A DNA stretch of 17,056 bases from a virus (taxonomy: Duplodnaviria; Heunggongvirae; Uroviricota; Caudoviricetes). The stretch spans positions 1-17,056 of IMG/VR virus record IMGVR_UViG_2671180921_000025. One strand, written 5' to 3'. Made by a program: the position numbers. Of the stretch, positions 12,001-15,000 are shown piece by piece. Within the stretch, counting starts at the first letter, position 1. Every line of letters begins with the position of its first letter.

Positions 12001-15000
12001 GACCGCAAAGCCACAAGCGAGCGTGGTGTGCCAGTGTTTAAAATCTGCGAACGTTGCAGCGGAAATGGATTTTCCACGGTACCGTCTACCACAGTATATA
12101 AAGTTGTACTGAAGCGGATACCCGAGCTACATGTCAGGACATGGACGCGTAATTGGAAGCCGTTTCTTGATTCTCTGGTTGACATTTGCCACCAGGAAGA
12201 GCGTAAGGCCGATATTGCTTTTCAGAATGTGACAAGTTTTGGTGATGATGTGAACTAAGCTTAGGGTTTTTGCGACATTGCACTTGATTTTGTCCGAATC
12301 TGTCATGTATTCTTTTAAGCATGCGGAATAATGCGTAAATGATTTTGATAGAAGCCCCTTTCGGGGCTTTTATCATTTCAGCCCGTTTAAAAAGCGTTCG
12401 AAATTATGGAATTCAAGTTCATCCGCTGTCGATGAGTATTTTATTTTGTTTGCGATGGGACGCAGATTTTTTTTAGTTAGGAATTTACTGGCTTCATGTT
12501 TCAGTTTTTTTAATCGCTTGATTCGTTCTTCGATTGAACTGGCAATTTGGGCAACATTAGAAATTTCTGGGCTTGGGGCTGTTTGTAGATCAATACACTG
12601 AATTTTTTTTAGATCTTCTTTGAGCGCAACAAAAAAATCACGAAGATTGTTTTCTGGTAAAAGAACATGACTAAATGATACTTTTCCTATGTAGAATTCA
12701 CTTATTGCCTCTCCAGACTCGCGCATGTGTTCATTCATTGCGAACAGAATTGTTTTGGTATTCTTATCAGTTTCCACTTCAGAAAGGGTTACAAGGCCTG
12801 TCTGGCTCTTGGTCAAAAAACGAATTTCTGTAGCACCAAGTCTTCCGGAGTAATTGGAATTTTTACTATTTTCGATGGTAGAAGATAGATAATCTATTGT
12901 GGGTTTGATATTTCGTATCGTTTCAATATTTTTTGCCACTCTTCACATTTACTTTTTGCGGTGCTAATAATTTCCCGATTGGTTTCGAGTTGCATAAATT
13001 TATTGAAACTAAGAACGTTTTCACCAAATTCCACACCAAATTCGTTTTTACCACATTTATTTCCGATGTTGGTTTCAATGCCACTAGATGTTTTTACAAT
13101 ATAACCCATTTGATGTGGTTGGTTGCAACCAGTTAGACCACAGTGGATTTCTTCTTTAAATTTGTAGTAACCAATTATCTCCTCAAGTTGTTGAACTCCT
13201 TTGTCTATAGTGGTGACAAAGTTTGGTCTGGATATAATTTCCTCCCAGTTTTCAAGTTTCTCGATGCCGTTTTCAGTTCTGAGAAAAATCATGAATCGCT
13301 CCATTTGAAAGTGGACCGTTTATTTTATCGGCATAAAAATGAGAACACCACAAGTTATTTTATTACCGAATACTTGGTAAAGATGGGTAACTTCGCCACA
13401 CAGCTTAAACACGCCGCCGGGCGGTTTTTTTATGTCCGTAAACCGGTCGTGGTGCCAGGGGGGGGCATAGTCAATGGACGCTCCTCTTGACCAGGCTGTG
13501 GCTGAAGTAAAGTTTATGGTGTTCTTTATATGTGAGAGATTCTCTATTCTATAAAAATATAAACCATATACCCGTAATCTTAAATAATTGATACTATTTT
13601 CCGGAAGCTATAGTGCATCATTATCTGCTTTCTGTTCCTGATAAACAGGGAAGTAATACATTGTGCAGTCATTTCCTGTGAGGGGATTTGTTTGTAATAA
13701 ATTTCTGCTAAAAACATTCCGGACTTCTTGCGAGGTATTATTCCTGGCGCTGCCGGTTCAGACTGATGGAGTGTTAATATATGCGACATATATTATTAAA
13801 GCTGGTGTTGTTTTTTTGTGTTTGCTTGTCTTCAGCATCTTATGCAGATGAGTTTACTGTGGATTTCTCTTCGCAAAAGAGCTATGTTGATTCATTGAAT
13901 AGTATAAGGTCGGCAATATCCACTCCACTTGGAAATATATCTCAGGGTGGTGTTTCTGTTTCAGTAATTAATCATGTTCCAGGCGGAAACTATATATCAT
14001 TGAATGTTAGAGGCCTTGATCCATATAGCGAGAGATTTAACCACCTCCGTTTAATAATGGAACGGAATAACTTATATGTTGCAGGCTTTATTAATACTGA
14101 AACGAATACCTTTTACAGATTCTCCGATTTCTCACATATTTCAGTGCCTGATGTGATAACTGTTTCCATGACGACGGACAGCAGTTATTCATCATTACAG
14201 CGAATCGCAGATCTGGAACGTACAGGGATGCAGATTGGGCGTCATTCACTGGTTGGTTCATATCTGGATTTAATGGAGTTCAGAGGACGTTCCATGACCC
14301 GCGCATCATCCAGAGCTATGCTGCGTTTTGTCACAGTGATAGCAGAAGCTCTGCGATTCAGACAAATACAGCGGGGATTCCGACCGGCGCTGTCTGAGGC
14401 ATCTCCGCTTTATACAATGACGGCTCAGGATGTTGACCTTACCCTGAACTGGGGAAGAATAAGTAATGTTCTTCCAGAGTACAGAGGAGAGGAAGGGGTA
14501 AGAATCGGTAGGATATCTTTTAATAGTCTTTCTGCGATTCTCGGAAGTGTTGCGGTCATCCTTAATTGCCACTCAACCGGAAGTTATTCAGTTCGTTCCG
14601 TGAGCCAAAAACAGAAAACAGAATGCCAGATTGTTGGAGACAGGGCGGCCATTAAAGTAAATAATGTTTTGTGGGAAGCGAATACAATCGCTGCTTTATT
14701 AAATCGCAAGCCTCAGGATCTTACTGAACCAAACCAATAACAGGGGGTGAATATGAAGAAGATGATTATTGCAGTTTTATTCGGTCTCTTTTCTGCTAAT
14801 TCCATGGCGGCGGATTGTGCTGTAGGAAAAATTGAGTTTTCCAAGTATAATGAGGATGATACCTTTACTGTGAAGGTGTCAGGAAGAGAATACTGGACGA
14901 ACAGATGGAATTTGCAGCCATTGTTACAAAGTGCTCAGCTGACAGGGATGACTGTAACAATCATATCTAATACCTGCAGTTCAGGCTCAGGCTTTGCCCA

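What the first reader, a model, noticed from the sequence alone, without database searches (positions are those of the whole stretch)
12373..13304. AT-rich antisense two-ORF cassette between the Q-like gene and stx: candidate undescribed accessory or defence module
In Stx phages the stretch between Q/tR' and stxA normally holds only late-operon elements on the same strand, often tRNAs. Here there is a 0.9-kb block on the opposite strand with visibly lower GC than its neighbours, encoding 136-aa and 188-aa products with no family I can recognise. It is bracketed by hairpins (12352-12375 and 13411-13431). That layout would let it be expressed in the lysogen independently of Q, while the antiterminated late transcript reads antisense through it. 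Lysogen-expressed morons at this kind of position are frequently phage-defence or fitness genes.
Basis: partly seen in the sequence, partly recalled or inferred. Interest (0 to 1): 0.72.

Follow-up and report, generated by a model that had tools for sequence, protein, structure and literature searches.

The report
Frameshifted antisense prophage accessory gene
The "two-ORF cassette" between the Q antiterminator and stx2f is one conserved 306-codon prophage accessory gene of unknown function, predicted elsewhere to be an anti-phage defence gene, and in this window a one-base deletion splits it in two, so this copy is probably inactive.

Summary
The AT-rich minus-strand block is real: 35.7% GC against 51% for Q. 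It is not a two-gene cassette. Both ORFs match one family, PHROG 7003 (N-terminal ORF to positions 1-122, C-terminal ORF to 120-309). Near-identical Stx2f prophages carry one intact 306-aa gene. The window has T6 at 12929-12934 where they have T7. This frameshift allele is not a sequencing error, because its exact products occur on about 200 contigs each. The intact gene is under purifying selection (dN/dS about 0.1). It has about 1000 cluster representatives and an invariant Cys-Cys-His-Cys site. A confident AlphaFold2 model shows a chromodomain-like barrel plus helices, with no informative match in Pfam, NCBIfam, PADLOC, PDB or BFVD.

In enterobacterial lambdoid prophages the gene always converges on the late activator. 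It lies just past a conserved promoter-plus-terminator block (candidate pR'/tR'), so Q-modified late transcription should cross it antisense. It has been lost three separate ways: frameshift, nonsense and a 929-bp deletion. A close allele is listed as a "putative novel defense gene" by DefensePredictor (log-odds 7.9) but is untested.

Verdict: an ordinary prophage "moron" of an uncharacterised, plausibly defensive family, present here as a pseudogene allele. Interest is moderate.

The parts
12284..12313 (+). Candidate late promoter pR'. It has -35 TTGATT (12284-12289), a conserved spacer element TTGTCCGAA (12290-12298, possible Q-binding element) and -10 TATTCT (12308-12313).
   Evidence: The block is nearly invariant across E. 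coli and Salmonella and recognisable in Yersinia and Morganella, although neighbouring coding DNA has dS > 1. Relatives have better -10 hexamers (TATGAT, TATCAT). The window matches only 8 of 12 consensus positions, so the scan did not list it. This assignment is inferred.
12327..12332 (+). A -10-like AATAAT followed by GCG in the initial transcribed region. It is a candidate sigma-dependent pause (qut) element.
   Evidence: Conserved as AATAAT or AGTAAC followed by GC in E. coli and Salmonella relatives. The analogy is with lambda pR' (sequence read). Inferred.
12346..12375 (.). Strong bidirectional intrinsic terminator. It is the candidate tR' for the + strand and also the terminator of the minus-strand gene, and it overlaps that gene's stop codon (12373-12375).
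   Evidence: 13-bp stem. Free energy is -22.3 kcal/mol (z = -6.5) on the + strand and -18.8 kcal/mol (z = -3.8) on the - strand. A hairpin is present at this position in all relatives.
12373..13292 (-). One gene of the PHROG 7003 family (306 aa when intact). Here it is split by a -1 nt frameshift.
12929..12934 (-). Frameshift site. The window has T6 (A6 on the coding strand) where intact alleles have T7 (CAA AAA AAT = Q K N).
   Evidence: Alignment A1. The exact frameshift products occur on 219 and 194 contigs, against 539 contigs for the intact protein.
12894..13292 (-). N-terminal fragment: 121 native residues plus an 11-residue out-of-frame tail. It holds a zinc-binding chromodomain-like barrel and the first long helix.
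12373..12939 (-). C-terminal fragment ORF (188 codons from a GTG with no Shine-Dalgarno sequence). It is probably not translated on its own.
   Evidence: PHROG 7003 positions 120-309. Sequence read.
13322..13350 (-). Putative own promoter of the gene: -10 TAAAAT (13327-13322) and a weak -35 TGGTGT (13350-13345).
   Evidence: About 45 nt upstream of the ATG are conserved between E. coli, EC2001 and Salmonella alleles although dS > 1 in the coding region. The consensus scan did not detect it. Inferred.
13411..13431 (+). Second + strand terminator-like hairpin with a T7 run. It marks the end of the module shared with non-Stx prophages.
   Evidence: It is weak in this window. Relatives have longer GC stems.
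13379..13396 (+). 18-mer AAAGATGGGTAACTTCGC, matching the lambda pR' pause region AACGATGGGTTAATTCGC at 15 of 18 positions.
   Evidence: 9 of 200 shuffles give a match. Its role is unexplained. It may be a vestige of a lambda-like qut.

Best explanation
The region holds one gene, not two. It encodes a 306-aa soluble protein of an uncharacterised family (PHROG 7003). The protein has an N-terminal Cys-Cys-His-Cys zinc-stabilised, chromodomain-like beta-barrel and a C-terminal helical domain.

The gene is a prophage accessory gene (a "moron") placed on the opposite strand in the leader of the late operon. Upstream on the + strand lie Q, a candidate pR' promoter/qut block and a strong bidirectional terminator (tR') that abuts the gene's stop codon.

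Proposed working (inferred):
- In a lysogen, pR' transcripts stop at tR'. The gene is transcribed from its own weak promoter (about 13330) towards Q and ends at the same hairpin. Its product most likely protects the lysogen against other phages.
- After induction, Q-modified RNA polymerase reads through tR', runs antisense across the gene and continues through the second terminator into stx2f and the lysis genes. This should switch the gene off while the phage itself grows.

In this window the gene carries a 1-nt deletion in an A7 run. That truncates the protein after residue 121 and leaves the C-terminal 185 codons without a ribosome-binding site. This copy is therefore most likely a non-functional allele, and the allele is common in Stx2f prophages.

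Shown: single gene, frameshift, purifying selection on intact alleles, conserved position, and repeated loss. Inferred: promoter assignments, lysogen expression, antisense silencing and the defence function.
For: Single gene:
- Both ORFs map end to end on PHROG 7003.
- An intact 921-nt ORF is present in near-identical Stx2f prophages, which differ by T7 versus T6.
- 103 homologues were found at E <= 0.001, about 40 of them partial or truncated records and most of the rest 304-310 aa. A profile search finds 997 representatives, mostly about 280-340 aa.

Real gene:
- dN/dS is 0.08-0.12 among intact alleles.
- C51, C56, H60 and C80 are invariant.
- AF2 pLDDT is 92.5.

Real allele:
- The exact truncated products occur on 219 and 194 contigs. 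All places shown are in Stx2f prophages.

Position:
- The gene converges on Q and lies before the holin or late genes in E. coli, Salmonella, Yersinia and Morganella. It occupies the same place next to a DUF1133 Q-like gene in Serratia.
- A conserved promoter-like block and hairpin follow Q directly.

Accessory nature:
- The gene has low GC.
- A 929-bp deletion in the 2012EL-2448 group leaves the last 73 nt of the gene.
- The M8 genome carries a GAG-to-TAG nonsense change at codon 11.

Defence lead:
- WP_032207072.1, the 90-3040 allele, is in DefensePredictor Table S10 with mean log-odds 7.87 against a strict cut-off of 4, and has no homology hit to known defence proteins.
- Homologues in a Klebsiella phage and a Pseudomonas temperate phage sit counter-oriented near Cro or repressor genes of the immunity region.
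- Genes within three positions of distant homologues include PsyrT, DpdF, RmrA, SoFic, PD-Lambda-2_B and a type II methyltransferase.
Against: - There is no experimental or transcript evidence for expression in lysogens.
- The gene's own promoter matches consensus poorly and the scan did not detect it.
- The pR' assignment rests on conservation. The window's hexamers match only 8 of 12 positions.
- A lambda-qut-like 18-mer lies downstream of the gene. This leaves open that the late promoter is there and that late transcription does not cross the gene.
- The protein has no recognisable enzymatic or effector motif and no structural relative.
- DefensePredictor's experimental validation rate was 45% overall, and this family was not found among the tested units.
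- Tight linkage to one Q type could instead mean a role in phage regulation.
Confidence: 0.6

Rival explanations
1. The A-run is a contingency (phase-variation) switch. Slippage between A7 (ON) and A6 (OFF) turns a costly gene on and off in the population, or low-level -1 ribosomal slippage on A AAA A before the rare ATA codon restores some full-length protein.
For: - The A6 allele is frequent (219 and 194 contigs, against 539 for the intact protein).
- A6 occurs on two different flanking SNP haplotypes, and A7 shares one of them.
- A -1 slip at this site would restore exactly ...WQKNIE... (read from the sequence).
- The gene holds several other A/T runs of 7-8 bases, and phi467 differs at one of them.
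Against: - Seven bases is short for efficient phase variation.
- The tract is not conserved as a homopolymer across the family (WQKIIE, WKKNIE, LQKNTD and others).
- There is no X XXY YYZ heptamer in frame and no conserved downstream structure.
- Recombination between prophages could also put A6 on two haplotypes. The sample is only 9 sequences.
Confidence: 0.12
2. The protein is a phage regulator tied to the Q/late-promoter module rather than a host-protective gene. For example, it could keep late transcription or Q expression tight in the lysogen.
For: - The gene travels with the C-terminal part of Q and the pR' block. About 20 genomes share only the first 644 nt of Q and lack the rest of the module.
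- The position is the same next to two different Q-type activators.
Against: - Distant homologues have no Q-like neighbour. Only 2 of 142 flanking proteins are Q-like.
- Other temperate phages carry the gene in the immunity region instead.
- Frameshift, nonsense and deletion variants persist. phi467, deposited as a phage genome, carries the frameshift.
Confidence: 0.1
3. It is a lysogenic-conversion or fitness gene unrelated to phage defence, affecting host physiology or colonisation.
For: - The opposite-strand slot between Q and the lysis genes is used by non-defence conversion genes such as nmpC/lc porins (own knowledge).
- The gene has low GC.
- There is no effector motif typical of defence proteins.
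Against: - The ML defence prediction.
- Known defence genes lie nearby in distant loci.
- The family occurs in a satellite-like element.
- The protein has no signal peptide or membrane segment, so a surface-modification role is unlikely.
Confidence: 0.15
4. It is a genuine two-gene cassette (for example a toxin-antitoxin or two-component system), or the split is a sequencing artefact.
For: Two overlapping ORFs are called here and are annotated as two CDS in phi467.
Against: - The two ORFs are contiguous halves of one profile.
- Every intact relative outside this frameshift allele has one ORF.
- The downstream ORF has no Shine-Dalgarno sequence.
- Identical truncated products appear in hundreds of independent assemblies, which excludes an artefact.
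Confidence: 0.02

Closest known systems
PHROG 7003 (phage protein family of unknown function)
   Same: Both window ORFs match it at E = 2e-51 and 5e-54 and together cover positions 1-309. The length and the invariant CCHC motif are the same.
   Different: The window copy is interrupted by a frameshift. The family has no assigned function, so membership explains nothing mechanistically.
Opposite-strand lysogenic-conversion genes between Q and the lysis genes (nmpC in DLP12, lc of phage PA-2) and morons in general
   Same: Same slot, opposite orientation to late transcription, deviant base composition, flanking terminator, and present or absent among related phages. The comparison with nmpC/lc rests on my own knowledge.
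   Different: Those genes encode outer-membrane porins. This protein is a soluble zinc-binding protein with no sequence or fold relation to them.
Prophage-encoded single-gene defence proteins with built-in self-immunity, e.g. BstA (Owen et al. 2021, PMC8585504)
   Same: About 300 aa, prophage-borne, and no conserved partner gene. There is a plausible device that spares the prophage's own lytic cycle, here antisense late transcription.
   Different: There is no significant KilA-N match (E = 0.066, below the cut-off) and no PADLOC hit. The genomic slot is different, and the self-immunity mechanism proposed here is transcriptional and untested.
DefensePredictor "putative novel defense gene" cluster WP_001549653.1 (DeWeirdt, Mahoney & Laub 2026, PMC13092281, Table S10)
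   Same: The allele WP_032207072.1 from strain 90-3040 (about 85% identical protein, same locus architecture) is listed with mean log-odds 7.87.
   Different: This is a prediction only. The allele and its cluster id appear in no held table other than S10, and Table S7 holds no 306-residue entry. Several of the stored tables were cut.
Chromodomain / chromoshadow (Royal family) fold

Membership tests
PHROG 7003 | Significant full-length match to the family profile | tested here: met
   ORF 12894-13304 matches positions 1-122 (E = 2.3e-51). ORF 12373-12939 matches positions 120-309 (E = 4.9e-54).
PHROG 7003 / 306-aa family | Invariant Cys51, Cys56, His60 and Cys80 (HCx4CNQPH ... GNxCG) | tested here: met
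   All four are present in the window's N-terminal fragment. They are invariant in 38 diverse members.
PHROG 7003 / 306-aa family | One uninterrupted ORF of about 280-340 codons | tested here: not met
   The window has T6 instead of T7 at 12929-12934, giving a stop after 132 codons.
Known anti-phage defence systems (PADLOC-DB 2.0) | Match to a model of a known or candidate defence protein | tested here: not met
   No hit for either ORF. Among 38 family members there were only single chance-level hits.
BstA-like prophage defence | N-terminal KilA-N domain | tested here: not met
   Pfam KilA-N E = 0.066, 13.5 bits against a cut-off of 23.8. No member of A3 hits it.
Moron (independent accessory transcription unit in a prophage) | Base composition different from the flanking phage genes | tested here: met
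   35.7% GC against 51.1% for Q.
Moron | Own terminator | tested here: met
   The hairpin at 12346-12375 folds on the minus strand at -18.8 kcal/mol, z = -3.8.
Moron | Own promoter active in the lysogen | tested here: inconclusive
   The upstream 45 nt are conserved and contain TAAAAT, but no consensus promoter was detected. Activity cannot be tested with these tools.
Moron | Present or absent between otherwise related phages | tested here: met
   A 929-bp indel separates 90-3040 from 2012EL-2448. The gene is nevertheless linked to this Q type in 15 of 18 complete genomes that hold the Q/pR' stretch.
Two-gene toxin-antitoxin or two-component cassette | Two distinct protein families, each with its own translation start | tested here: not met
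   One family spans both ORFs. There is no Shine-Dalgarno sequence before the GTG at 12939.
Programmed -1 ribosomal frameshift gene | In-frame X XXY YYZ slippery heptamer and a frameshift conserved among homologues | tested here: not met
   The zero-frame codons are CAA AAA ATA. The intact homologues are single ORFs.
Chromodomain | Three-stranded sheet plus C-terminal helix fold | tested here: inconclusive
Lambda-type late control (Q, pR', qut, tR') | Q of the lambda family followed by a promoter, pause element and terminator | tested here: inconclusive
   Q matches PF03589 (E = 3e-52) and is 32% identical to lambda Q. A conserved promoter-like block and a strong terminator follow it. The start site and the pause are not testable here.

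The most novel reading that the evidence does not exclude
The intact gene founds a new single-protein anti-phage defence family: a zinc-stabilised chromodomain-like sensor fused to a helical effector. Its self-immunity is hard-wired by genome position. The gene sits antisense in the late-operon leader, so the prophage's own Q-antiterminated transcription silences it at induction. Homopolymer slippage (A7/A6) provides an additional population-level ON/OFF switch.
Probability: 0.2. Interest if true: 0.7.

Novelty: new member of a known kind. Interest (0 to 1): 0.4.

Why it matters
- For Stx2f phages, the stretch between Q and stx2f is not just a leader. It holds a selected gene that late (toxin) transcription must cross, plus two terminators. 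These features could affect how tightly stx2f is kept off and how strongly it is induced.
- More widely, the family is large (about 1000 cluster representatives at 50% identity), folds confidently and resembles nothing characterised. A machine-learning screen has flagged it as defensive. It is a cheap, well-defined candidate for experimental testing.
- Natural ON (A7) and OFF (A6, nonsense, deletion) alleles are already available in sequenced strains.
- For this particular window the finding is modest, because the copy is a frameshifted allele.

Tried and rejected
Searches that gave nothing useful:
- Pfam, NCBIfam and PADLOC on the two ORFs, the intact protein and 38 diverse members gave only chance-level hits.
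- A profile search of PDB sequences gave none.
- Foldseek against BFVD gave nothing at E <= 0.001.
- The afdb50 library was not available.
- Rfam over 11800-14000 gave nothing near threshold.
- A literature search by accession numbers gave no paper.
- tblastn against 50,697 phage records gave only 6 different phages (7 records), all annotated as hypothetical or uninformative.

Tool refusals:
I therefore could not ask whether A7 also occurs on the second haplotype.

Ideas considered and rejected:
- The late promoter lies downstream of the gene. This was prompted by the lambda-like 18-mer at 13379-13396. I rejected it as the main reading because the block right after Q is the one conserved across genera and Q types, and no acceptable -35/-10 pair precedes the 18-mer.
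- A two-gene cassette, a sequencing error and a programmed frameshift (see rivals).
- A conserved partner gene. None was found among 142 flanking proteins of 25 distant loci.
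Full report
**1. What is in the sequence**

The window is an Stx2f prophage. Region 12260-13500 is 99.8% identical to Escherichia phage phi467 (LN997803) and 99.8-99.9% identical to prophages in three complete Stx2f E. coli genomes.

The gene order on the + strand is as follows:
- DEAD-box helicase
- primase
- a 285-aa protein
- Q antiterminator (11428-12258; PF03589, E = 3e-52; 32% identical to lambda Q with an extra Cys-rich insert)
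- the block in question
- stxA2f and stxB2f
- tRNA-Thr and tRNA-Gly
- holin and the other lysis genes

The two minus-strand ORFs exist at the stated coordinates. The block has 35.7% GC, against 51.1% for Q and 45.8% for the whole window.

**2. One gene, not two**

- Both ORFs hit the same family, PHROG 7003. The 136-aa ORF covers profile positions 1-122 and the 188-aa ORF covers 120-309.
- In STECUZB006, 2015C-4136CT1 and 377323_2f the same DNA carries one 921-nt CDS (WP_062860141.1, 306 aa).
- The alignment shows a single difference inside the gene. The window and phi467 have T6 at 12929-12934 where the others have T7.
- On the coding strand the intact reading is TGG CAA AAA AAT ATT (W Q K N I). 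Loss of one A gives ...WQKILKRYEISNPQ* and ends the protein after 132 codons.
- The family alignment starts at MIFLRT.
- The GTG that opens the 188-codon ORF has no ribosome-binding site.

**3. The frameshift is a real, common allele**

- The exact 132-aa and 188-aa products are on record from 219 and 194 contigs. The identical intact protein is on 539 contigs.
- The index lists the truncated product in 392 blocks of assemblies. Every place shown is an Stx2f prophage.
- I compared nine Stx2f prophage copies. The A6 allele sits on two flanking SNP haplotypes. Haplotype I comprises the window, GCA_043914815 and GCA_012161415. Haplotype II comprises phi467, GCA_043576385 and GCA_043590625. The three A7 genomes have haplotype I.
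- This pattern needs either repeated slippage in the A-run or recombination. The sample is too small to decide.
- phi467 has a further T9-versus-T8 difference at 12467-12474.

**4. The intact gene is functional and is repeatedly lost**

- Pairwise dN/dS among intact alleles from E. coli, Salmonella and others is 0.08-0.12, with dS up to 1.6.
- The mouse strain M8 has GAG to TAG at codon 11. Five further complete genomes give the same blastn match (1172 nt, 98.6%) but were not read.
- Strain 2012EL-2448 lacks 929 bp relative to 90-3040 and keeps only the last 73 nt of the gene. Two further complete genomes (2015C-3121, STEC2018-553) match only the same 185-nt stretch and were not aligned.
- With the frameshift, that makes three independent routes to loss. 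This is typical of a dispensable, possibly costly accessory gene.

**5. The protein**

- A sequence search found 103 homologues at E <= 0.001 in Enterobacterales, all unnamed. About 40 are partial or truncated records, and most of the rest are 304-310 aa.
- A profile search of 1.84 billion representatives found 997 at E <= 0.001, mostly about 280-340 aa.
- Across 38 diverse members the invariant residues are Y43, C51, C56, H60, G63, G77, C80 and G81. This indicates a Cys-Cys-His-Cys metal site in the motif HCx4CNQPH...GNxCG.
- AlphaFold2 gives a confident model (pLDDT 92.5). It has a beta-rich N-terminal domain (1-80), a 40-residue helix, and a helical C-terminal domain with two small hairpins.
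- No Pfam, NCBIfam, PADLOC, PDB-sequence or BFVD relation was found.
- No catalytic motif is conserved. The likeliest biochemical role is binding of a protein or nucleic-acid ligand by the zinc barrel, coupled to the helical domain. This is inference.

**6. Genomic setting and how the locus probably works**

In every enterobacterial lambdoid prophage I examined, the gene converges on the late activator and precedes the late genes. Those late genes vary: stx2f, tRNA genes or holin directly. The prophages were E. coli EC2001, 90-3040, F719, KC-Dl-1 and pigeon strain 3, four Salmonella loci, Yersinia and Morganella. In Serratia the gene holds the same place next to a different activator type, DUF1133 (Q-like, phrog_753).

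I aligned the short spacer between the activator's stop codon and the gene's 3' end. It contains two conserved elements:
- **A promoter-like block.** TTGATT is followed by the near-invariant TTGTCCGAA and a -10 (TATTCT here, TATGAT or TATCAT in relatives). A -10-like AATAAT-GCG element follows.
- **A strong hairpin.** It lies at 12346-12375 (-22.3 kcal/mol, z = -6.5).

Serratia and Phytobacter have their own TTGACT-16-TAAATT promoter and hairpin in the same place. This layout matches lambda's pR'-qut-tR' (lambda sequence read).

I therefore place pR' at about 12284-12313 and tR' at the hairpin, which overlaps the gene's stop codon and folds on both strands. It follows that Q-modified late transcription runs antisense through the whole gene, then through the second hairpin-plus-T-run at 13411-13431, and into stxA.

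The module shared with non-Stx prophages ends just after that second terminator. About 20 further E. coli genomes share only the first 644 nt of Q. The travelling unit is therefore the C-terminal part of Q, pR'/tR', the gene and the second terminator.

Upstream of the gene's ATG, about 45 nt are conserved between alleles whose coding DNA has dS > 1. This stretch includes TAAAAT (13327-13322) at a suitable distance for a -10. The -35 is weak and the scan did not call a promoter.

My proposed cycle is inferred, not shown. In the lysogen the gene is on and pR' transcripts stop at tR'. On induction, convergent antiterminated transcription silences the gene.

An 18-mer 15/18 identical to lambda's pR' pause region lies at 13379-13396 (9 of 200 shuffles match). 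It remains unexplained. It is the main reason I do not rate the pR' assignment higher.

**7. Function: defence is the best lead, untested**

- Distant homologues (25 loci from Gamma- and Betaproteobacteria) have no conserved neighbour. Their flanks mix integrases, invertases, HTH/M78 regulators, AbiJ, phage genes and housekeeping genes.
- Those flanks include known defence proteins: PsyrT twice, DpdF, RmrA, SoFic, PD-Lambda-2_B and a type II methyltransferase.
- One homologue lies at the edge of a satellite-like element with a primase, capsid and small terminase.
- In Klebsiella phage ST13-OXA48phi12.2 and Pseudomonas phage Atpa001 the homologue sits counter-oriented near the Cro or repressor gene of the immunity region. 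That is the classic slot of rexAB- and sieB-type genes (the comparison is my own knowledge).
- DefensePredictor (PMC13092281) lists WP_032207072.1, the allele of strain 90-3040, among 1,041 E. coli clusters with a predicted uncharacterised defence protein. Its mean log-odds is 7.87 against a strict cut-off of 4, with no HHblits or Foldseek hit to known defence proteins.
- That study's overall experimental validation rate was 45%. I found no sign that this family was among the tested units.

**8. Comparison with what is known, and verdict**

The locus works like a moron or lysogenic-conversion gene in the slot between Q and the lysis genes. That slot is known from nmpC/lc (own knowledge). The locus may also work like prophage single-gene defences with self-immunity, such as BstA (PMC8585504). 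It is not a member of either protein family, since KilA-N and PADLOC were tested and not met. It is a member of PHROG 7003, which has no known function.

The window's copy is a frameshifted allele and so is probably inactive. A low level of -1 slippage on A AAA A before the rare ATA codon could restore the native sequence, but nothing suggests this is programmed.

It is wrong on the two-ORF architecture and on the implied functionality here.

Novelty: a new, uncharacterised member of a known kind of prophage accessory gene. Overall interest is 0.4. The most novel reading not excluded (see the section on the most novel reading) has a probability of about 0.2.

Noticed in passing
window 13379-13396 (+): AAAGATGGGTAACTTCGC matches the lambda pR' sigma-dependent pause region (AACGATGGGTTAATTCGC) at 15 of 18 positions. 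It lies just upstream of the second terminator, although the conserved promoter-like block is next to Q. It may be a vestigial or second qut-like element.
   Followed up: partly
window 11428-12071 versus 12072-12258 (Q gene): About 20 complete E. coli genomes match only the first 644 nt of this Q gene at about 98% and then diverge. This points to a recombination breakpoint inside Q. The C-terminal part of Q travels with the pR'/tR'/antisense-gene module.
   Followed up: partly
window 13458-13465 (+): A poly-G run about 315 nt upstream of stxA varies in length between otherwise near-identical Stx2f prophages: G8 here, G7 in phi467 and 2015C-4136CT1, G9 in 377323_2f.
   Followed up: no
window 12290-12298 (+): TTGTCCGAA lies between the -35 and -10 of the candidate pR'. 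It is almost invariant from E. coli to Morganella and could be the Q-binding element of this Q type.
   Followed up: partly
window 11428-12258 (+): This Q protein (276 aa) carries a roughly 69-residue insert relative to lambda Q, with additional CxxC-type motifs (weak DnaJ_CXXCXGXG match).
   Followed up: no
window 15530-15683 (+): tRNA-Thr(TGT) and tRNA-Gly(TCC) lie downstream of stxB, before the holin. In many Stx phages the tRNA genes lie upstream of stx. The related non-Stx prophage F719 has Ile-Lys-Thr-Gly tRNA genes directly after the antisense gene.
   Followed up: no
L052 (GCA_012161415, CP126912.1) 1-608: In one Stx2f prophage with the A6 allele, the holin/lysozyme region downstream of stxB is replaced by a transposase gene (IS element). 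That prophage is probably lysis-defective.
   Followed up: no
window 12467-12474, 12505-12511, 12603-12610, 12631-12637: The gene holds four further A/T homopolymers of 7-8 bases. phi467 differs at the first (T9 versus T8), which produces a second frameshift in that record.
   Followed up: partly
DefensePredictor Table S10 (PMC13092281): A second 921-nt, 306-aa hypothetical protein, WP_112864588.1 (cluster WP_053901801.1), is listed with log-odds 9.70. It might be a divergent member of the same family, but its sequence could not be obtained here.
   Followed up: no
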